DNA from: Malacoraja senta
Taxonomy: Eukaryota
Direction of reading: 5' to 3'
Length of the DNA: 64,000 bases
Assembly: GCA_038087875.1 (NCBI GenBank)
Contig: CM075988.1
Coordinates: forward strand, 11,224,001-11,288,000
The notes below the pieces were generated by a model. It worked only from the letters and a program-made list of their open reading frames with translations, was not told where the DNA came from and did not search any database. The translations under genes and the position numbers were made by a program. This document shows positions 4,268-59,472 of this stretch, piece by piece. The stretch's first letter is position 1; every line of letters starts with the position of its first letter.

Positions 4268-4885
4268 GGCGTAGATTGGGCAGTCGTTTCACTGAACACT
4301 TTCGCTCAGTCTGCCTGGACCTATTTGATCTCCCAGTTGCTAAACCCTTCCCATTCCCACACTGACCTTTCTGTCATGGGCCGCCTCCATTGTCAGAGTG
4401 AGGCTAAATGCAAATTGGAGGAACAGCATCTCATATTTCACTCGGTCAGTTTACAACCCAGTGGTATGATATATTGATTTCCCTAACTTCAAGCAACCCC
4501 TGCATTCCCATCCCTTCCCCTCCCGAGTCGCACCAGCTTCTTGTTCTCACCTAGCCCACGTCTAACGGTGGCCTGTTTCCTTTATCATCATTACTTTTTT
4601 GCATATCCATCATTCATTTGCATATCCATCATCCCCACCCCCTATCAGTCTGAAGAAGGGTTTCGGCCCGAAACGTTACCTATTTCCTTTGCTCCATAGA
4701 TGCTGCTGCACCCGCTGAGTTTCTCCAGCATTTTTGTGTACCATTCATTTATTCTATATCTCTCTACATCACCATCTATATCTCTCAGTTTGAAGAAGGG
4801 TCTTGATCCAAAACATCACCCATTCCTTCTCTCCAGAGATGCTGCCTGTCCCGCTGAGTTACCCCAGCATTTTGTGGCTATGTTC
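4268..4885 (+). mobile_element. Penelope-like element 3' remnant (GIY-YIG C-terminus, 3' UTR, hammerhead-bearing repeats)
   Basis: Frameshifted translation RLGSRFTEHFRSV...LPVA...HSHTDLSVMG.LHCQSEAKCKLEEQHLIF...LQPSGM..DF.NFK resembles the PLE endonuclease C-terminus. Hammerhead-like cores follow at 4650 and ~4790. Confidence 0.8.
4647..4680 (+). ncRNA. Minimal type I hammerhead ribozyme motif (PLE-associated)
   Basis: CTGAAGA-A-GGGT TTCG GCCC-GAAAC-GTT: CUGAnGA box, stem II, GAAA box, palindromic ACGT stem III, NUH triplet. Confidence 0.65.
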
Positions 4886-10545: not shown

Positions 10546-12321
10546 TACAGATCAGAAACATGCCATCCTTTTTTTTCCCCCATGATTCGAAATTCCAAGA
10601 TGTTACGTATTTGACATTGTATGGACTACATATTGAAGCCTTTTTAAAACTCGTATAAATTATGCCTACTACATTACCATTGCCTGCTCATTGAAAAAAA
10701 AAAACATTAGGTTCACTTAATGAAAAGCTACTGATTTGAAATCCATGCAGACTGCACATTATCATTTTTCATTCTTAAATATATATATTTTTCTATTCTA
10801 TCCTATAGAAGGGATTTGAACATTTTCTTCACGTGACGTTAAACCACAAGTCTATGATTCCCTGAGAATGTTCTATCCTACTTAAAAATAGATATTATGT
10901 TAACAATCTGTCATTTTTCCAGCATTGCACATTTTTCAAACAAATTATTAAAGATATACTGTGTTATTTCTTCCCTGAATTCATTTAGGATTGTGCATAG
11001 ATACAATCACTCTAGATCAGAAGGTTTATCCACTTTGAGAGAGATTAGTTTATTTAATTTTTTTTTTTTCCATTTTAAATGCACTTAACTCATTACTCAT
11101 CTCATCATCCAAGATCATGTCCACCTATTCTGGTAAATAGCAATATAATGGTTTAATAAATCTGCCATCTTCCTCTTGTTATCTGTGTTATTGCCCTGCC
11201 CATTTCTCAATAAAACTATTATCAAACCAGACATTTTATTGTTTGGTCTGCAAAATGTTTTTCTTTAACTTCATGCTTTGTGTTCCAAATGATGTTTCTT
11301 TTTTTTTTTCTGACTTTCCCCTCATTCCTGGTCGAGACCATATATAGGCCAAGTATATTTTTGGTCAAGAATCATTACTGTGCCATGTGGAACCCCTCAA
11401 GTATGATGTCATGTCATTAATCCTGCACTGTGTTGTTTCATAGTTTGATGTGGAACTTGCCAAACTTGGTTTAACACTCGGAAAGAAAGCCACAGCAAGA
11501 AAATGCTGCCCTGACACTTTAAGCTAACTATAATTTAATAAGGTACTTAATAAAATGAATCACTTAATAAATGCACAAGCATGAATTTCTCACCAGCTAC
11601 TGAAGAGGCAGAGGTTTTCTCTGGCACTCATGTTAATATGAACCACAAACTAATTTCCATTACCTTGGAGAGAGAAATACCCAGACAACTCGGGATAATT
11701 GATCTCTTTTGTTTTAAAATAAAATAGTTTCTATTATAGATAGACACAAAAAGCTGGAGTAACTCAGCCGGACAGGCAGCATCTCTGGAGAGAACCAATG
11801 GGTGACATTTCAGGTCGAGACCATGTTCCTTCCGACGCAGTTTCAATAATAGTTTCATTATATCATTACAACATTATAGTAGAATAGTTTCATCCATGAG
11901 TTCAGAGTAGCATCTTGCAACTAAGATTTGTTTTGTGTGCAATCTTTTCTGTAACCCATTCATAAGAAGAAAGTCTCCTTTGCATCTTAGAGTTTCTGTA
12001 GGACAATCTTGCATGTTTGTTTTCAAACTACTGATCTAAATTAGAACATCTGTTGCAAGTACAACGTTTTAGACGATAATTCCTCATAATGGCGTGAATG
12101 TTTAATTCATAGAAAGTTGAGAAAGGAGATAGGAAATAGTCTTCCTAGGTAGTAGGACATTTGCACAGATAAAAAGGAATCTATAATCAAAGAGTGGTTG
12201 ATAATGAAAGAAAAATTGGAAGACTGAAATTAAAATTGCAAAGGCACAACAAGCAACATCTGTGGAAAGAGAAATTGAGTTAACATTTCAAGTGCAAGTC
12301 TCTGATAATGCTTGATGCTTT

Positions 12322-16004: not shown

Positions 16005-17458
16005 CTAGACTAAGTGGGACCCGTTGGGAGGGCTGGTCCCCCAATGCAATATTCCACCTCCACCAATTCCAATATTGATGGCCAGTGGGGGGGGGCTTTC
16101 TGGAGCGCTAGTATGGGTATTGTGGGCTGACGGGACTGGTTTCCAGAGAGCTAGTATGGACATTGTGGGCCAAATGGATTCTTGGGCTGGCAACTCACTC
16201 ACGACTGGTGGGCTAGCAGTTGACTCACGGCTATTCCTTGAAATTCCATTTCAAACAGGGTGCAAGGCCACTAAATTCAAGTGCAGTTTCATGCCACCAA
16301 GCAGGGTGCAAGGCCAGCAAATTCAGGTGCAGTTTCATGCCACTTCAAGCAGGGTGCAAGGCCACCAAATGCTAGCGCTGTTTAATGCCATTTCAAGCAG
16401 GGTGCAAGGCCACCAAATTCAAGTTCAGTTTCATACCACTTCAAGCAGGGTGCAAGACAACCAAATTGAAGTACAGTTTCATACCATTTCAAGCAGGGTG
16501 CAAGGCCACCAAATTCAAGTGCAGTTTCATACCATTTCATGCAGGGTGCAAGGCCACCAAATTCAAATGCAGTTTCATACCATTTCATGCAGGGTGCAAG
16601 GCCACCACATTCAAATGCAGTTTCATACCATTTCAAGCAGGGTGAAACCACCATAAAACCACTATAAAACCACACAAAACACCACATAAACACCACACTC
16701 ACAGTTCAGTAGACATTCAGTGTGTTCAGTTGATTCACAGCTCAGACAGTCGTGACCTCTCCCTCCCCCATCTTGCAGAGACTAAGCCACCCACACTTCT
16801 GTGTTTTATAATCCCTCCTCCCTCCCACCGGAAGGGGCATGGCCTTCATGGCGTGATTGACAGGAGAGAGATTCTCAACATTTTTTTAAACACTAATAAC
16901 ACTTTTATTTTTCATTGATGGGAAGAATCCTCTGCACCTGATGAGCAGCGGGGGACTGAGTAAGATGGCCAAAAATCACAGCTGTACGTGGTAGGGTTTT
17001 ATCTAAAATCAACATACAATGCAAACAGGAAGTTGTCAAGTTTCCACCAACAACCATTTTTGCAGTGCAGCATTTCAAAGCAACCACATTTTCATTTTCA
17101 AACCACATTAAGGGCACTCACAGTAGAGTAGACATGTGTTCAGTGCTATTCATAGCTCAGAGTGACGTGACCCTCTCGCTTCCTCCATCTTGCAGGGACT
17201 GACTGAGGCACAACACTTCCGGGTTTTATAGTCCCTCCCCCCTCCCACCAGCAGGGCAGCGGAGAGAATCTCAAATTTTTAAAAACATTAATAACTCTTT
17301 CATTTTTCATTGATGGGAAAAATCCTTTTGTCCTGCGCAGCGGAGGGGGACTCTGAGTAAGATGGCCAAAAATCACTGCCGTAAGTGGCAACGTATTTTC
17401 TAAAATCATGAAACAGAAAAACAGGAAGTGGTCAAGATTTAACTTTTAGTAATAGAGA
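16005..17458 (-). mobile_element. Non-autonomous Helitron
   Basis: The minus strand starts A|TC (17458) and ends CTAG|T (16005), with no TSD: the canonical Helitron termini and A/T target. Contains a 48-bp array and a duplicated ~340-bp module. A second copy lies at ~58510-59472. Confidence 0.8.
16248..16642. repeat. 48-bp minisatellite (~8 copies) inside the Helitron
   Basis: Unit TCAAGCAGGGTGCAAGGCCACCAAATTCAAGTGCAGTTTCATACCATT; it explains the 16-aa periodic ORFs. Confidence 0.95.
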
Positions 17459-39430: not shown

Positions 39431-39944
39431 CTGGTTCTGTTGTTAGATTTCATGAAGCTACTTGCTGAAGTGAATGACAGAGCACAGCTGCAAATGGAAG
39501 TCCAAGAAGTCAGTTTGACCATTGAACTCTGGTGGTACCAATTGGAACTGCTGAGCAGACTTGGCGTAATTCATCCCATTGTGTCGATTTCACCTAGCCT
39601 TCTGATTTATTTGGGCCTGATGTGTATCACTCTGCCTATGTTACAATGAGCCAGTAATTAATTCTCACAATCTCTGCATAAATCGTGTTGAGGAATTTTA
39701 AGCAAGCGACAAAAAAAAATCCTTATTCTTTGGTGGCTGAGGATGAGAAATGTCATAACAGCTGATAATTCTGTGCTGTACCCTGCGTATGTTCACATCC
39801 ATTGTAGGGAGAGTCCATTGATAAAATGAGGCTCAATCTCTAGTGATTGATCAGAGTTTCAGGCAAAACTCCACCAACCATATATTATTATAATTGTAGC
39901 TTCCCATTTGATTTAAGACTAAGATTTGCATAAAACTCACACAT

Positions 39945-40225
39945 TCACACTCTCTCTCATTTTCATTCCCTTTCTCTCATTCCTATTCTCTCCCTCATTC
40001 GTTCTCTCTCTCTCTCCCTCTCTCTCCCTCTCTCCCACTCTCTCCCTCTCTCTCCCTCTCTTTCCCTCTTTCCCTCTCTCTCCCTCTCTCTCCCTCTCTC
40101 TCCATCTCATCCACTCTCTCCCTCTCTCTGTCTCATCCACTCTCTCCCTCTCTCTACCTCTCTCTCTCTCTCCCTCTCTCTCCCTCTCTCCCCATCTCTC
40201 CCCCTCTTCCATCTATCTCACTCTC
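39945..40225. repeat. CT/CCCT polypyrimidine microsatellite
   Basis: ~280 bp of (CT)n/(CCCTCT)n. Confidence 0.95.
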
Positions 40226-40751
40226 TCAATCATTCTTGCTCTTCCTCTTTTTATCTTCTGCAGTGCCTAGGTTTCCTTACAGCAAAATTGTGACATATTA
40301 TTTCTAGGATGGAGAGGACAAGTTGACCCTTACTGTGCAGCTGCCCAAACCTTCTGCAGCATTGCTGCACTTGCTGTCTATTAATGATTATTAAACTATT
40401 AACTTCATCCACATCTACTCAAATGATAAGCATTTGTTATTTTGCTGTGGTTCATTGGTGTGTAATTATTCCCCATCTGGGAAATCTGAATTTCCACTGA
40501 TTTCAGTGGAGATTGGCAATGTATACACCTCTCCCCTGTGCCCATTCTGCTGAGAGATTTGGAGTATTCCCTATTACAACTGAAAACATTTGTTGAGTTA
40601 TACTTGGTTGCAGAGTTGATTCTTCAATAATGCACTGAATGCCTATTCATGGAAAATTGATTGAGATCAATTTAATGGTTAGATGACTCCGTCAGTCTCT
40701 CAATGCTTGAAATACGCAAATTGTCTTTATTATGCAAGTAGACAGAAGGGT

Positions 40752-40885: not shown

Positions 40886-43544
40886 TTCATTATTGAGTGT
40901 TGAATACGACTTACCATGAATCTTGTCTTGGCCCTGTTTATATTCATTGAATTAGCTTTGCTTTGTTGGTTAACGTCCTCCTGTCATTGTCGTTGTCATT
41001 TAGGGAGGCATGAAATGCCACTAATTCCCCTCCCATCCTTGTTTGCTTTGATGCAAAGTGTGAGGTGATGGGAGTTGAGCAAGGTGCAGGGGGCTTCTCA
41101 TTCACACCCACTTATGATGCTTGCTTCAAGTAATCGGTACCTTCATCAATTATAACACACACCCAGCAGCCCTCTTCATGCTCAGTTTGCTTTCATCCCA
41201 GTAATCTATATTAATACCCTTTCTCATCTGTTTCAATTGTGGTGTCTGAGTTGCTTATATTATCTGTGCTGCGATATCCCTCTCTTGTCTATTTTCTGGC
41301 CCGCTATCAGTCTTGGCTTAATTTCAGACTTTGATGGATCTCAAATATTCTGCAGTGGACTGTTATCTGTTGCAGTGATGGTCTGATGTATGTTTTTGAG
41401 GTGTGTGATGCTTCGGGGAATAATTTTATTCCTGTTCCATGCAGCATTTGTAGTTTAACATTTGCCCGTCTGATTCCGTGTCCAGATTGAACAGCATCTC
41501 GCTGTTGTATAGGAGTCTGGAGGAGACTGAACGAGAAGCTAGCAACAACTTAAATATAATTCAGAGAATGTTGGAAACACTCTGCTGTCCAGGAAATATC
41601 TGAGGAGAGAGACACAGAGTTACTCTTTTAGAATAAGAAACAAATGAACTGCTGATGCTGGTTTACAAAAAAAGACACAGTGCTGGCATAACTCAGTGGG
41701 TCAGGCAGCATCCTTGGAGAACATGGAAAGGTGACATTTCGGCATCTATCCATGCTATTTCTCTCTCTCTCTCGCTCGCTTTCCCTCTCTCCCTCTCTCT
41801 CTCTCTCTCTCTCTGACTCATTTTTGCTCTCTCTCTCTCACTCATTCTCGTTCTCTCTCTTTGTCCCTGACACAAAATGTCACCTATCCATGTCTCCAGA
41901 GATGCTGCGTGACACGTTGAGCTACTCCAGCAATTTGTTTCTTTTGCTGTTCTAGATCTTCCTTTGTTGTACTCTCAATTGCATTTGGTGCCCTGTGATG
42001 AGGGATATACAGCATGTTCCTGATGGTCACGGACATTGAGCTGAATGGTACAAGGCTTCAACCTTTGGAGATGCATGTTCATTGAGGTTGCCATCTGCTT
42101 TTACAGCCAGTGTGAGCCGTGCGAAGAAAAACTAATTGGACCCTGAAGAAGATCCTACTTTCTGAGAAAATGTATCGAATGCTTGTAAATGACCCGGTAG
42201 CAGTGCTTTATGAAAATTAATAATGAAGTCATTGCTTAGCAACTGGATGTTTGATATTTCAGAAGCGGTTCCTAATTTTCCTAATGTTTTTTCAGAATTT
42301 TATTGGAGACATTGATATCCAAGATTATTCAATTTCAATTTGTTGTGCACGTGTTCTTATTAAATAAATTGTTGCAGAATAATAGTGCAGGTTATTATAA
42401 ATTTGTTTGTAGGAATACAATAAAATTACAATGCATGAATCCAAAAGGAAGTATCCTTGGCGGAATGCAACGTCAAAAGATTGCAAGTTGTTGGAGTTGT
42501 CATCCATTAGCAATCTTGTCCTGTCCTTGTTGCAAACCCTTGTATAATAAGCATTCAGTTATCATAGGCATGTTAATGTTGTTTCTGTTTTCATTCCTTA
42601 TTAATCACTTTGTGGGAGCGCTCACAGCAGCGACTTGTCTCAACATGTAGCTGCCTTCATTATTAATAATTCCTCTTGATTTCGTTCTCACGAGGGTTCC
42701 AGCTCCCAATCTGTCCTAATCTGTCATGGCATTGACTTCAATTCCTTGGGGTCTACTTGGCCATAAGCAGCATGCATCAAACAATGGTGTATTGCCATTT
42801 ATCCTAGTTTTTGTTCAGGCAGGCAAGGTTAAAATCACAGCCAAAAGGTGAGAGAATTATGCTTATTTTTTGGTTAAGCATTGATGTTGAATTACATTTG
42901 CTGATGGATTACTTAGCACATTTGAATGTTCCTCTTTCGCACACCCCATCCTGCAAAGCTTATTGAATCATTAAAAATGAATTTCACCCCACTTTGTACT
43001 TGCAAATCTGGAATCAAGTGAAATCTAGTGAAATCTTTTCATTTGTTTTTTTATGTGGTATGTTAATCATTCAAAAAGTTAAATGGCAAAACAAATGGGA
43101 TGTTGAATTAGATTTGGTTGGGACTCACATTTTATGGTTGTAAAGAGAGCAGCAGCATCAGCCTTCTCCATTATTTCCCCCTCAAGCTTATGGAAACTTC
43201 TGGAGTAAGTACATGCTGGGAAATGCTATAGTTCTGAAGTTGGTGCCATTGCATTCCCAATTCCTTCACTCAGTGTGTCTGGTTAAACATTCATCTGCAT
43301 GGTACTTTATTTGTACTTTATGAAGATCCATTATTTCTTGCAAAGAATGTAATTGCATTGAAATATAACCAGATGCTTCCAGCCTGAAGTCACATAGTGG
43401 TAATGACATCAGCCAATTATGGGATGATGCAATTATGCACACTGTTCCTTTCGAACATTATTCTTAAGTGGCCTTGCCTTGAAGCATTCTCAGAATGACT
43501 ATGTTTTAATAGCGTGATCTCACAGTTTAGGTTCCTTAGTTAAT

Positions 43545-47775: not shown

Positions 47776-48957
47776 TCAGAGGGTCAGGCAGCATGTGTAG
47801 GAAGGAACTGGAGATGCTGGTTTAAATCGAAGATAGACACAAAATGCTGGAATAACTCAGCGGGACAGCATCTCTGGAGAGAAGGAATGGGTGACGTTTC
47901 GGGTCGAGACCCTTCTTTAGTCACCCATTCTTTCTCTCCAGAGATGCTGCCTGTCCCGCTGAGTTACTCCAGCTTTTTCGGTCAGGCAGCATCTGTGGAG
48001 GAAATAGACTGTTGACATTTCAGAATGAGACCTTTCATCTGGACTGAGAGGGGACATTACCAGTATAAAAACATGGGGGAGAGTTGGGGGGTGGGCAGGA
48101 GCTGACATTGTTGACAAGCGATGAATTGTTATCCACAATATTTTTGACCAATTTAAACTAAATTATTTCTTCATTTTTCCCCTTGAAAGGTTGTAGTTGA
48201 AGTGTGATTCTTTAGGAGAGCGGTTTGAATTTTTGATGTCAAACATTAAAAAAAATTAAATACTTTTTCTTGGCTTCTCGACATGGAGTTTTTTCAATCA
48301 CGAGTGTAGAATCAAGAAGTATCCCGACCCAAAATGTGTCACCTGTCATGAGATGCTGCCTGACCCACTGTTACTCCAGCTCTTTGTATCCTTTTTTAAA
48401 CATTACATTGATTGTTAATTTATTTTTAATTATAAGGTGTTGCGAACCAGGAATATTCAGCCCCAAATGTATACTCTATACTTTCCCAACCTTCCCAGCT
48501 TATTGACTTAGAAATGTCAAAAAAATGAATAAACTGCTTGAACAAAATAGGGCCAAATAGATGTGTAGTTGGTCCATTAATAATGAAACATACGATCGTA
48601 AACAATGGTATAATCAAGATGCTTAAATTAACCTGAGGCGCGTGTCATTTTAGCTTTACTGCAATAAATTGATGTTTTGAATGCTAATTTTACAATGAAA
48701 CCCATTTATCATAATTGGTTCTAAGTACCAGCATTTTTGCTGTGTGGGTAATTCACATTGAAAGCAGGAACTTGAACTCAGAAATTGTTCCTTTAAATTG
48801 GAAAATTACAAAGGTACCATCATTACTTCTGAAAGGTGAGTCAGAGAAACCAGGAAATCTTAAACCTGTTGATCCAACATCTGTTATGGGGAAGTAATTG
48901 TAATTTATAATGAAACGTTGAGTCATTGAACACTTAGAAAAATTGGAACTGTTCAGA

Positions 48958-52830: not shown

Positions 52831-52923
52831 CATTGCATTCCTAATACCACGACCACACTCTCCCACACACATATAACATCATGCCCCAAATGCTTCTTCC
52901 TTCCAATCATCTCCTAAATCTTT

Positions 52924-53059
52924 TTTCTTCTTGCGTATGGCGTGCACAGCCTAAAGTTGTAAGACAACTTGTTCTGTTTGATCTTCTGTTTGTGCATGCC
53001 AGGTTGATTGCATTTGTTGAAACAGGGTGGACCACGTGAAGGTTGGAATCTCCCACCCC
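52924..53059 (-). mobile_element. Short TSD-flanked retroposon with HDV-like ribozyme head (Ingi/Vingi-like non-autonomous element)
   Basis: TSD CTAAATCTTT at 52914-52923 and 53060-53069; 3' end CCATACGCAAGAAGAAA; 5' end folds as an HDV-like double pseudoknot. Confidence 0.8.
53006..53059 (-). ncRNA. HDV-like self-cleaving ribozyme motif (minimal P4)
   Basis: P1 GGGGUGG/CCACCCU with G1-U wobble; P2 GAUUCCA/UGCAAUC (one mismatch); P3 ACC/GGU; L3 UUCACGU; J4/2 C-A-A-A. Confidence 0.72.
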
Positions 53060-53094
53060 CTAAATCTTTCTGATAGTCAGGTTAATGCTCTCCA

Positions 53095-56624: not shown

Positions 56625-56832
56625 GTTTAGGAAGGAAGTGCAATTGCTGGTATAAACCGAAGATAGACAAAAAATGCTGGAGCAACTCAGCGGGACAGGC
56701 AGCATCTCTGGAGAGAAGGAATGGGTGACGTTTCGGGTCTGAAAAAGGGTCTCAACCCGAAACAATCGCCCATTCCTTCACTCCAGAGATGCTGCCTGTC
56801 CCCCTGAGTTACTCCAGCATTTTGAGTCTAGC
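56625..56832. mobile_element. Fold-back pair of PLE terminal repeats
   Basis: The minus copy ends GTGACGTTTCGGGTC and the plus copy starts GTCTGAAAAAGGGTCTCAACCCGAAAC; the arms are ~75-bp near-perfect inverted repeats. Confidence 0.8.
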
Positions 56833-58509: not shown

Positions 58510-59472
58510 CAAATGGTTGGTGGTGGTTGGTTTGAAATAAAGCACAGCAAATGGTTGGTGGTGGTTGGTTTGAAATGGCAACTGATTAAAAGTCTAAACT
58601 TGACAACTTCCTGTTTGCACTGTATAATGATTTTAGATAAAACGCTACCACTTATGGCTGTGATTTTTGCCCATCTTACTAAGTCCCCCTCTGCTCATCA
58701 GGTGCAGAGAATTCTTCCCATCAATGAAAAATAAAAGTGTTATTAGTGTTTAAAAAATGTTGAGAATCTCTCTCCTGTCAATCACGCCACGAAGGCCACG
58801 CCCCTTCTGGTGGGAGGGGGGGGGATTATAAAACCCAGAAGTGTGGGTGTGGTTCAGTCTCTGCAAGATGAGGGAGGGAGAGGTCACAATTCTGTCTGAG
58901 CTGTGAATCAACTGAAGCCGTGAATCAACTGAACTGTGAGTGTGGTGCTTAAGTGGTGTTTAAGTGGTGTTTTGTATGGTTTTCTGGTGGTTTGACCCTG
59001 CTTGAAATGGGATGAAACGGCATTTGAATGTGGTGGCCTTGCACCCTGCATGAAATTGTATGAAACTGTATTTGAATTTGGTGGCCTTGCACCCTGCTTG
59101 AAATGGTATGAAACTGCACTTGAATTTCGTTGCTTGCACCCTGCTTGAAGTGGTAGGAAACTGCACCTGAATTTGGTGGCCTTGCATCCTGCTTGAAATG
59201 GTAGGAAACTGCATTTGATTTTTGTGGCCTTGCACCCTGCTTGAAATGGAATTTCAAGGAATATCCGTGAGTCAACTGCCAGCCCACCAGCCCACAATGT
59301 CCATACTAGCCCTCTGAAATCCAGTCCCTTCAGCCCACAACACCCATACTAGTGCTCCAGAAAGACCCACCCCCCCAACACGCACACACACTGGCCAGCA
59401 ATATTGGAATTGGTGGAGAGGTGGAATATTGCGTTGGGGGACCAGCCCTCCCGTGTGAACCACTTAATCTAT
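58510..59472 (+). mobile_element. Non-autonomous Helitron, second shorter copy
   Basis: Reverse complement of ~16005-17080, including the 48-bp array (58995-59247, ~5 units). 3' end CACTTAATCTAT versus CACTTAGTCTAG in the first copy. Confidence 0.75.

What the first reader, a model, noticed from the sequence alone, without database searches (positions are those of the whole stretch)
52914..53069. A ~135-bp retroposon whose 5' end is an HDV-like self-cleaving ribozyme
Seen: the minus strand from 53059 reads GGGGUGG-GA-GAUUCCA-ACC-UUCACGU-GGU-CCACCCU-GUUUCAA-C-AAA-UGCAAUC. This maps in order onto the HDV double pseudoknot: 7-bp P1 opening with the G-U wobble, P2 with one C-C mismatch, 3-bp P3, L3, a G available for a 1-bp P1.1, a vestigial P4, and a C at the catalytic J4/2 position. 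The predicted cleavage site falls at the element boundary, directly against a 10-bp TSD (CTAAATCTTT on both sides; the boundary is ambiguous by 1 nt in the C run). The 3' end is CATACGC(AAG)n. There is no tRNA/5S/7SL head and no ORF. Known: HDV-like ribozymes process the 5' ends of R2, RTE and L1Tc/Ingi retrotransposons, and the P3-L3 sequence resembles the L1Tc Pr77 ACCTCAACGTGGT. Inference: this is a promoter-less SINE-like family, likely an internally deleted Ingi/Vingi-type LINE, that cuts itself out of host read-through transcripts. CAAA (for CGAA) and the P2 mismatch may be post-insertion decay.
Basis: partly seen in the sequence, partly recalled or inferred. Interest (0 to 1): 0.88.

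Follow-up and report, generated by a model that had tools for sequence, protein, structure and literature searches.

The report
Ribozyme-headed short retroposon of an RTE-like LINE
This is one copy of a very abundant 135-base mobile element whose first 54 bases fold like a stripped-down hepatitis-delta-type self-cutting RNA, apparently inherited from the larger jumping gene that copies it.

Summary
Window 52924-53059 (minus strand) is a TSD-flanked, (AAG)n-tailed, ORF-less retroposon. Its family has thousands of copies in this 1.94-Gb genome, and their 5' ends sit at the same G.

The first 54 nt fit the HDV double pseudoknot. Three results support the fold:
- Fixed-end shuffles almost never fit it.
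- Undecayed copies give an HDV ribozyme model as their best, though sub-threshold, Rfam hit.
- Two further elements in the genome carry the same architecture with different, still complementary P1 and P2 helices. In the three-way alignment 9 of 18 pairs change on both sides and 96% of cells pair.

The two further elements are a 215-nt sister retroposon with a short P4, and a LINE with endonuclease and reverse-transcriptase domains and a long P4. The LINE ends in CATTCGC(AAG)n and the window's family in CATACGC(AAG)n.

The P2 mismatch is private to the window copy. CAAA is a subfamily state.

Self-cleavage itself is untested. PolyA RNA reads cross the predicted site and show no pile-up of ends there.

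Verdict: a new member of a known kind, notable for its natural P4-less ribozyme.

The parts
53060..53069 (-). 5' copy of the target-site duplication (AAAGATTTAG on the minus strand)
   Evidence: the same 10-mer recurs at 52914-52923
53006..53059 (-). 54-nt HDV-like ribozyme module without P4 (element positions 1-54; predicted cleavage 5' of G at 53059)
53053..53059 (-). P1 5' strand GGGGUGG (positions 1-7)
   Evidence: pairs with 53024-53030; 4 of 7 P1 pairs change on both sides among the three lineages
53044..53050 (-). P2 5' strand (positions 10-16). This copy reads GAUUCCA; the family reads GAUUGCA, so C at 53046 is a private change
   Evidence: (w53046 G>C in 114/120 and 171/174 reads)
53031..53043 (-). 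P3 (ACC/GGU) with the 7-nt loop L3 UUCACGU; C22 at 53038 is the proposed P1.1 partner of G37
   Evidence: P3 and the C22-G37 pair are invariant in 15 of 15 aligned rows
53024..53030 (-). P1 3' strand CCACCCU (positions 30-36). Position 32 is A in the young subfamily and G in the older, larger one; both pair with U5
53017..53023 (-). G37 (P1.1) plus a 6-nt linker that stands where the relatives have P4
   Evidence: alignments A1 and A2; one search aligns 5 nt against 20 model positions of P4
53013..53016 (-). J4/2: C44 (proposed catalytic C) followed by AAA here; GAA or UAA in other subfamilies
   Evidence: C aligned to the C of the model's CUAA
53006..53012 (-). P2 3' strand UGCAAUC (positions 48-54)
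   Evidence: 5 of 7 P2 pairs change on both sides among the lineages
52940..53005 (-). 3' body: an outer stem (about 53000-52992 with 52947-52939) enclosing the hairpin AAGUUGU-CUU-ACAACUU (52970-52954)
   Evidence: -23.6 kcal/mol, z = -3.0, 1 of 200 shuffles folds as well
52924..52939 (-). 3' terminus CATACGC followed by the tail AAGAAGAAA; the terminus is shared with the sister family (CAAACGC) and the LINE (CATTCGC)
52914..52923 (-). 3' copy of the target-site duplication

Best explanation
The stretch is one slightly damaged copy of a non-autonomous non-LTR retroposon, here called family 1. It has three parts: a 54-nt HDV-like ribozyme lacking P4, a 70-nt stem-loop body, and the terminus CATACGC(AAG)n.

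Proposed cycle:
1. A source copy is transcribed as part of a longer host or neighbouring transcript. This step is inferred.
2. The 5' module folds into the nested double pseudoknot and cleaves just 5' of G1, which sets the invariant 5' end. The fold is shown by comparison; the catalysis is inferred.
3. The reverse transcriptase of an RTE-like LINE in the same genome copies the RNA by target-primed reverse transcription, giving 8-14-bp TSDs. That LINE carries a homologous ribozyme with a long P4 and ends in CATTCGC(AAG)n. The shared ends and the TSDs are shown; the partnership is inferred.

A 215-nt sister retroposon (family 2) has the same plan with a 5-bp P4. The ribozyme module of family 1 most likely descends from an RTE-lineage 5' end by loss of P4 and of the whole interior.
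For: Family and ends:
- Searches show thousands of copies, 5' ends at G1, TSDs and (AAG)n tails.

Fold against chance:
- 3/200,000 and 5/100,000 shuffles fit the descriptor.
- the same geometry (J1/2 = 2, P2 = 7, L3 = 7) fits family 1, family 2 and the LINE, with 0/50,000 shuffles for each of the latter two.

Rfam:
- Undecayed copies L009 and L023 have RF02682 (HDV-F-prausnitzii) as their best hit of 4227 families: 15.9 bits, E 0.68, full model, aligned exactly from G1 to C54.
- Family 2 copies reach 36.7, 34.2 and 32.1 bits.
- The LINE 5' end has RF00094 (HDV ribozyme) as its best hit at 17.0 bits.

Covariation:
- A1: 98.7% of 223 cells pair and 7 of 23 pairs change on both sides.
- A2: 96.3% of 270 cells pair and 9 of 18 pairs change on both sides, 4 in P1 and 5 in P2. 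Slid controls give 32-45% paired and 0-3 such pairs.
- P3 and the C22-G37 pair are invariant.

Within the family:
- The only common changes in helices keep the pair: U5.G32 to U5-A32, and C31 to U opposite G6.

Partner LINE:
- Ribozyme followed by EN and RT.
- 3' end CATTCGC(AAG)n with 913 hits against a control of 5; 74 of the 100 listed rows read ATTCGC.

Precedents seen in passages:
- The L1Tc ribozyme works with a one-pair P1.1 (PMC3185411).
- Minimal HDV-like ribozymes lack P4 (bioRxiv 10.1101/2023.06.13.544163).
Against: No cleavage has been measured.

Every Rfam score is below its family's gathering score (44 or 50 bits). The window copy and subfamily-2 copy L039 give no HDV hit at E <= 10, so only 2 of 4 family-1 copies tested do.

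In polyA RNA-seq of a related coded organism:
- 148 reads run on across the predicted cleavage site into varied upstream sequence, against 223 (189 + 34) across the 3' end.
- The table of places where many molecules begin or end is empty.
- Both strands are covered.
This gives no positive sign of cleavage in vivo. Orientation, 5'-truncated copies and hidden rows confound the ratio.

The covariation rests on only three lineages and on rows I chose. The number of pairs with double changes is reached by 129/500 (A1) and 70/500 (A2) column shuffles.

P4 is absent and P1.1 is a single pair, which could weaken or abolish activity.

Family 1 shares only about 13 terminal nt with the LINE at the 3' end.

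No uninterrupted full-length LINE ORF was seen among the 46 of 123,279 candidates scored.
Confidence: 0.78

Rival explanations
1. The 5' module is a structural relic of the LINE's ribozyme that no longer cleaves once P4 is lost. On this reading the constant 5' end comes from something else: an internal promoter that starts transcription at G1 (the dual promoter-ribozyme role reported for L1Tc Pr77), or a structural need of the reverse transcriptase complex.
For: - One search shows many polyA reads crossing the site and no pile-up of ends at G1.
- P4 is absent and P1.1 is one pair.
- Rfam scores for family 1 are low (15.9 bits).
- PMC3185411 (abstract and passages) describes a 5' module that is both promoter and ribozyme.
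Against: - The helices stayed complementary in every successful lineage, including the youngest, where U.G became U-A.
- The C at J4/2 and the G37-C22 pair are kept.
- P4-less HDV-like ribozymes are reported as a natural class (bioRxiv 10.1101/2023.06.13.544163, passages).
- No A/B-box or small-RNA head is detected.
Confidence: 0.14
2. One reading: an internally deleted Ingi/Vingi-type LINE.
For: - The general idea of both LINE ends without the interior fits the layout.
- I made no RT phylogeny, so the clade is not formally fixed. By my recollection Vingi also lacks RNase H.
Against: - Relatives of the LINE are 990-1050-aa single EN+RT proteins on 3.2-3.6-kb contigs.
- In the copy read, the frame runs into the (AAG)n tail, so there is almost no 3' UTR.
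- The tail is a trinucleotide repeat, not poly(A).
- These are RTE hallmarks as I recall them from Malik and Eickbush 1998, which I did not see. HDV-like ribozymes are on record for RTEs (PMC6765202, passages).
- At the 3' end only about 13 nt are shared, so this is not a recent simple deletion product.
Confidence: 0.04
3. The HDV-like pairing is a chance property of a G-rich SINE head.
For: The nested part alone folds no better than shuffles (z = -0.2 for L009 and +0.16 for the window copy).
Against: -: shuffles almost never fit the full topology.
- three sequence-divergent lineages keep all helices.
- HDV models are the best Rfam hits for all three.
Confidence: 0.02

Closest known systems
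HDV-like ribozymes at the 5' ends of non-LTR retrotransposons (R2, RTE, baggins, L1Tc)
   Same: - Nested double pseudoknot at the very 5' end.
- Cleavage predicted just upstream of nucleotide 1, freeing the element from a co-transcript.
- A partner LINE of RTE-like build.
Sources: PMC6765202 passages; PMC3185411 abstract and passages; PMC3774820 abstract. Ruminski et al. 2011 and Webb et al. 2009 are not held and are recalled only.
   Different: - Here the best-studied copy type has no P4 at all and is 54 nt long.
- The host is a vertebrate-type genome.
- No activity has been measured.
Non-autonomous derivatives that keep the LINE's ribozyme: R2 SIDEs in Drosophila; NARTc, RIME and SIDER in trypanosomatids
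   Same: - Short ORF-less elements with the parent's 5' ribozyme and 3' recognition end, copied in trans.
Sources: PMC3414825 abstract; PMC4035085 abstract and passages; PMC6765202 passages.
   Different: - SIDEs insert site-specifically in 28S rDNA, whereas these copies are dispersed with varied TSDs.
- NARTc and SIDER share long, near-identical ends with L1Tc/ingi. This family shares about 70% of the first 39 nt and only about 13 nt at the 3' end with the LINE found.
- Its P1 and P2 helices are rewritten.
Minimal (P4-less) HDV-like ribozymes from metagenomes, and theta ribozymes of gut phages
   Same: The same core without the P4 domain. Sources: bioRxiv 10.1101/2023.06.13.544163, passages; PMC10879173, search listing only.
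   Different: - Those come from microbial or phage sequence and flank tRNAs.
- This one heads a eukaryotic retroposon and has P4-bearing relatives in the same genome.
RTE-derived SINEs
   Same: Short elements mobilised by RTE-clade LINEs and ending in the LINE's short repeat tail. This is recalled from Malik and Eickbush 1998, which I did not see.
   Different: Classical SINEs have a Pol III head (tRNA, 5S or 7SL). None is detected here; a ribozyme stands in its place.
Schistosome SINE-like elements with hammerhead ribozymes
   Same: A short non-autonomous retroposon carrying a self-cleaving RNA (PMC6765202 passages).
   Different: A different ribozyme class, reported there as Pol III transcribed and working on tandem multimers.

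Membership tests
HDV-like (delta) self-cleaving ribozymes | Nested double-pseudoknot order: P1-J1/2-P2-P3-L3-P3'-P1'-P1.1-(P4)-J4/2-P2' | tested here: met
   descriptor; alignments. P1 has 7 bp, P2 7 bp, P3 3 bp and L3 7 nt in all three lineages. P4 is absent in family 1, 5 bp in family 2 and long in the LINE.
HDV-like (delta) self-cleaving ribozymes | Helices supported by compensatory changes | tested here: met
   9 of 18 pairs change on both sides and 96.3% of 270 cells pair, against 32-45% in slid controls. Caveats: only three lineages, rows chosen by me, and 70/500 shuffles reach the pair count.
HDV-like (delta) self-cleaving ribozymes | G at +1 closing P1 (G.U wobble in HDV, as I recall) with the cleavage site at the 5' edge of the domain | tested here: met
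   G1.U36 in 13 of 15 rows. G1 coincides with the family's 5' boundary. Cleavage itself was not tested.
HDV-like (delta) self-cleaving ribozymes | Unpaired C in J4/2 just before the P2 3' strand (the catalytic C) | tested here: met
   C44 is nearly invariant in A2. One search aligns it to the C of the model's CUAA. About 7% of reads carry T there, which is CpG decay.
HDV-like (delta) self-cleaving ribozymes | Match to a curated covariance model at its gathering score | tested here: not met
   Best scores are 15.9 bits (family 1), 36.7 bits (family 2) and 17.0 bits (LINE) against cut-offs of 44 and 50. There is no hit at all for the window copy or L039. These models do not encode the P2 pseudoknot.
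HDV-like (delta) self-cleaving ribozymes | [quoted passage not shown] | not testable with these tools
   The RNA reads give no positive sign and cannot decide.
LINE-dependent non-autonomous retroposon (SINE in the broad sense) | Dispersed copies with variable TSDs, a 3' repeat tail and no ORF | tested here: met
LINE-dependent non-autonomous retroposon (SINE in the broad sense) | 3' end shared with an autonomous LINE of the same genome | tested here: met
   CATACGC(AAG)n against CATTCGC(AAG)n. Only about 13 nt plus the tail are shared. Longer sharing was sought and not found.
SINE in the strict sense | Pol III head derived from tRNA, 5S or 7SL RNA | tested here: not met
   No such Rfam match at E <= 10 on the window copy or L009.
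RTE clade (for the partner LINE) | Single ORF of about 1000 aa with APE then RT, element of about 3.2 kb, very short 3' UTR, short-repeat tail (definition recalled) | tested here: inconclusive
   The architecture fits. No phylogeny with reference clades was made, and the copies read are broken.
   The tail is (AAG)n, not poly(A), and no RNase H family is listed among 120 relatives. RT grouping was not tested.

The most novel reading that the evidence does not exclude
A vertebrate-type genome holds a natural deletion series of one HDV-like ribozyme: long P4 in an RTE-like LINE, a 5-bp P4 in a 215-nt retroposon, and no P4 in a 135-nt retroposon. The P4-less 54-nt form is catalytically active. 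It has driven the largest and most recent amplification, with thousands of copies, some 96-100% alike. That would make it the first minimal HDV-like ribozyme with a clear job in a eukaryote, and a SINE type whose head is a ribozyme rather than a Pol III promoter.
Probability: 0.55. Interest if true: 0.72.

Novelty: new member of a known kind. Interest (0 to 1): 0.6.

Why it matters
Ribozyme-processed LINEs and their short parasites are known from insects and trypanosomes. My four searches of the held literature found no paper that joins self-cleaving ribozymes with cartilaginous-fish or other vertebrate SINE families. Dfam and Repbase could not be searched.

If the 54-nt form cleaves, it would matter in three ways:
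- It shows that the P4-less 'minimal' HDV-like ribozymes, so far described from metagenomes and phages, also arise and work in animal genomes.
- It gives a ready-made comparative series for asking what P4 contributes.
- It shows how a promoter-less 135-nt RNA can out-multiply its LINE simply by cutting itself out of host transcripts.

Thousands of potential self-cleavage sites inside host transcripts could also affect mRNA stability.

Tried and rejected
Searches for a LINE sharing long ends with family 1 used exact patterns with 'not' letters. All returned only SINE variants:
- 8 hits.
- 61 hits, mostly a second subfamily with CTAA.
- 122 hits.
- 42 heterogeneous hits.
- 1 hit.
- 79 hits.
- 6 hits.

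Leads that went nowhere:
- The class reading AGGCCCTTTAGG proved to be a MITE inserted into the SINE.
- L050, a ribozyme fragment joined to a CR1/L2-like ORF2, is most simply a nested insertion. Its LINE part is broken, and no 3' end was recovered.

Patterns for a third ribozyme lineage:
- Searches gave counts equal to their controls.
- Only succeeded.

A possible within-family compensatory variant (P1' reading CTTCCCT, 5 copies) turned out to be unrelated decayed copies with no change at position 5.

Rfam:
- Nothing in the whole window at gathering scores.
- No HDV hit for the window copy or L039.

Sequencing runs: no RNA holder listed. Only the added raw-read run X24 could be laid.

Earlier findings of this scan: nothing relevant.

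Papers not held: Ruminski 2011 and Webb 2009.

ORF scan around the element: nothing coding.

Full report
**1. The observation**

Read on the minus strand, the window holds the 10-mer AAAGATTTAG at 53069-53060 and again at 52923-52914. Between the two lies a 136-nt element. It begins GGGGTGGGAG at 53059 and ends CATACGC plus AAGAAGAAA at 52939-52924.

There is no ORF of note around it. There is no Rfam match to tRNA, 5S, 7SL or any other small-RNA head at E <= 10, and nothing in the whole window at gathering scores.

**2. It is a large, partly young family with a fixed 5' end**

- A DNA search of the window's own 1.94-Gb assembly gave 2715 first-look candidates. The 40 that were scored are 96-100% identical, and 35 of the 40 start at query position 1.
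- Exhaustive pattern counts give 286 exact hits for a 28-mer of the young form (control 0).
- They give 2,820 exact hits for the older form, which has G instead of A at element position 32 (control 0).
- A further 324 hits belong to forms with other 3' bodies.
- In the 29 other loci I read, by eye, a flank repeat of 8-14 bp in about 27. It ends within 0-2 nt of the first G, and the tail is (AAG)n. L006 and L013 are one duplicated locus.
- Runs from six coded organisms hold the sequence. In the four runs laid, the homology breaks exactly at 53059 and at 52925/6 (loose ends).

**3. What is private to the window copy**

- The C that makes the C-C mismatch in P2 is G in 27 of 29 other copies. It is G in 114/120 and 171/174 RNA reads. 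In the family, therefore, P2 is a perfect 7-bp helix.
- The A after the J4/2 C (CAAA) is shared by 19 of the 29 nearest copies. That sample is biased towards the window copy.
- In the laid runs the same position reads G in about half to 72% of depth and T in 17-26%. A whole subfamily has CTAA.
- Position 45 is thus free to vary among lineages that amplified. It is not merely decay.

**4. The fold**

- With the 5' end fixed, a loose HDV descriptor is met by 3 of 200,000 mononucleotide shuffles and 5 of 100,000 dinucleotide shuffles. The descriptor asks for a 7-bp P1, a 3-bp Watson-Crick P3, an L3 of 6-9 nt, one P1.1 pair, a P2 of at least 5 bp, and a C four nt before the P2 3' strand. I wrote it after seeing the sequence.
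- Ordinary nested folding recovers P1 and P3 but is no better than shuffles (z = -0.2). That is expected for a pseudoknot in a G-rich stretch.
- The 3' body does fold better than shuffles (z = -3.0).
- On undecayed copies L009 and L023, the best hit of all 4227 Rfam families is the HDV-type model RF02682. The score is 15.9 bits with E 0.68, against a cut-off of 44.
- That hit matches the full model and is aligned from G1 to C54, with 5 nt standing where the model has 20 positions of P4.
- The window copy and subfamily-2 copy L039 give no such hit.

**5. Relatives that test the fold**

*Family 2.* Searching the genome with RF02682 gave five sub-threshold hits of 36.7 to 25.9 bits; 62 of 82,112 candidates were scored.
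- All five belong to a second short retroposon of about 215 nt, with TSDs and the terminus CAAACGC(AAG)n. It has 147 exact hits to its core.
- Its head has the same plan with other helices: P1 GGGGCUC/GAGCCCU, P2 GUUGUCG/CGACAAC, P3 ACC/GGU, a 5-bp P4, and CGAA before P2'.

*The LINE.* A pattern keeping only the P3-L3 core and excluding both families' P1' letters gave 32 hits against a control of 8. Of these, 19 form a third lineage.
- These are 5' ends of a LINE: P1 GGGAGAG/CUCUCCU, P2 GUCGGCA/UGCCGAU, a long P4, and C-AGA or C-GGA before P2'.
- The head is followed by an ORF with Exo_endo_phos_2 (43.8 bits) and RVT_1 (106 bits).
- The best Rfam hit of this 5' end is the HDV ribozyme model RF00094 itself, at 17.0 bits against a cut-off of 50.

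**6. Covariation**

- In alignment A1 (6 family-1 and 5 family-2 rows), 98.7% of 223 cells pair and 7 of 23 pairs change on both sides. Slid controls give 29-43% paired and 0-1 such pairs.
- In alignment A2 (6 family-1, 4 family-2 and 5 LINE rows), 96.3% of 270 cells pair and 9 of 18 pairs change on both sides. Four of these are in P1 and five in P2. Slid controls give 32-45% paired and 0-3 such pairs.
- Pair 5-32 occurs as CG, GC, UA and UG. P3 and the C22-G37 pair never vary.

Caveats:
- These are three lineages, so few independent events.
- I left out visibly damaged copies. From family 2: L072 (from A2 only) and L073-L076. From the LINE: L083, L084, L088, L090, L094 and L095.
- None of 500 column shuffles reach the observed share of paired cells or the covariation score. 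But 129/500 (A1) and 70/500 (A2) reach the number of pairs with double changes.

The same descriptor geometry fits all three lineages, with 0 of 50,000 shuffles for family 2 and for the LINE.

**7. The partner**

- One LINE copy was followed to its end. It finishes ...CATTCGG(AAG)3, and the reading frame runs into the tail.
- Genome-wide, the 3' end ...TTTGGTTTATGTTTC + 6 nt + AAGAAG has 913 hits at up to 2 mismatches (control 5). Of the 100 rows listed, 74 read ATTCGC; most of the rest are CpG-decay forms.
- So the LINE ends CATTCGC(AAG)n, family 1 CATACGC(AAG)n and family 2 CAAACGC(AAG)n.
- Relatives of its RT are single proteins of 990-1050 aa with endonuclease and RT families on contigs of 3.2-3.6 kb. 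No RNase H family appears among the 120 listed.
- This is the RTE build as I recall its definition, and HDV-like ribozymes are on record for RTEs (PMC6765202, passages). I made no phylogeny, so the clade is inferred.
- Family 1 matches the LINE at about 27 of the first 39 positions, and the differences in P1 and P2 are compensatory. At the 3' end only about 13 nt are shared. It is therefore an old offshoot, not a fresh internal deletion.
- Among the 46 of 123,279 candidates scored with a related protein, no uninterrupted full-length ORF was seen.

**8. Is it cut in cells?**

Only one raw RNA run could be laid: X24, polyA, paired, from coded organism F, with about 6% of the run read.
- 611 reads lay on the element, and 609 of them run on into other sequence.
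- 148 continue upstream of G1 into varied sequence, against 189 + 34 beyond the tail.
- No place is flagged where many molecules begin or end.
- Both directions are covered: depth about 110-130 and 150-260.

Copies are therefore passengers in longer transcripts in both orientations, and uncleaved or antisense junctions are common. The smaller number at the 5' junction could reflect cleavage of sense copies. It could equally reflect 5'-truncated copies or rows that were not shown. I count this as no support, and as weak evidence against efficient cleavage.

**9. Reading**

*Shown:*
- The retroposon family, its fixed 5' end, its TSDs and tail.
- The HDV-like architecture conserved through compensatory change in three lineages.
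- A LINE with the same head and the same 3' terminus.

*Inferred:*
- Self-cleavage at G1.
- Dependence on read-through transcription.
- Mobilisation by this LINE.
- RTE membership.

*Precedents I saw in print:*
- A one-pair P1.1 in the active L1Tc ribozyme (PMC3185411, passages).
- P4-less natural HDV-like ribozymes (bioRxiv 10.1101/2023.06.13.544163, passages).
- Ribozyme-bearing non-autonomous derivatives of R2 and of L1Tc/ingi (PMC3414825 abstract; PMC4035085 abstract and passages).

*Novelty:* Four literature searches found no paper joining self-cleaving ribozymes with cartilaginous-fish or vertebrate SINE families. Repeat databases could not be consulted. I file it as a new member of a known kind. 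The P4-less head in a eukaryotic, recently amplified retroposon is its unusual trait.

Noticed in passing
G000 loci L077-L080, L072-L076 (e.g. L077:31-250): A second ribozyme-headed short retroposon of about 215 nt, with a 5-bp P4, TSDs and the terminus CAAACGC(AAG)n. Its core has 147 exact hits. A shorter variant (L080) ends AAATGC(AAG)n.
   Followed up: yes
L084:58 onward, L086, L087; 5' ends in L083, L085, L088-L095: An RTE-like LINE with an 89-nt HDV-like ribozyme head and the terminus CATTCGC(AAG)n. All copies read are broken by stops or insertions, and several 5' ends are off by 1-5 nt.
   Followed up: yes
L069 (reverse strand) and L070; rows reading TAAAGGGCCT: A MITE-like element with terminal inverted repeats (GGGCCTGTCCCAC...) has inserted repeatedly at the TTA inside the SINE's CTTTAGG. 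At least 7 of the 100 rows listed show it.
   Followed up: partly
rows such as G000:C1:146317344: A deletion subfamily of family 1 in which CGAATGCA is followed directly by CAATCAAATAA. The P2 3' strand could still pair, with a 2-nt bulge.
   Followed up: no
L050 (G000:C4:42398716-42401750) and L071: Ribozyme positions 1-50 are joined to the middle of a CR1/L2-like ORF2 (DWAMFRDSSKDLNEY...). This is probably a nested insertion. The same abundant LINE family lies near L075.
   Followed up: partly
loci L061-L068 (small contigs): One subfamily-2 copy with identical flanks recurs on many small contigs, so it sits inside a larger duplicated or satellite-like repeat.
   Followed up: no
window 16250-16695 and 58940-59300; 39932-40233 and 41733-41886: 48-bp tandem arrays occur in inverted orientation about 42 kb apart (93-94% complementary), together with arrays of 8-10-bp period.
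   Followed up: no
window, e.g. 4649-4879, 11737-11822, 47826-47984, 56660-56829: Several other dispersed SINE-like families with 9-11 copies each occupy the 64-kb window (families D3, D5, D8, D9). The window is repeat-rich, non-coding DNA.
   Followed up: no
rows reading TAAAGTTG plus two varied letters: Many copies appear to begin at the same internal point (CAACTTTAGG...), just 3' of the hairpin loop. This may be a preferred 5'-truncation point of reverse transcription.
   Followed up: no
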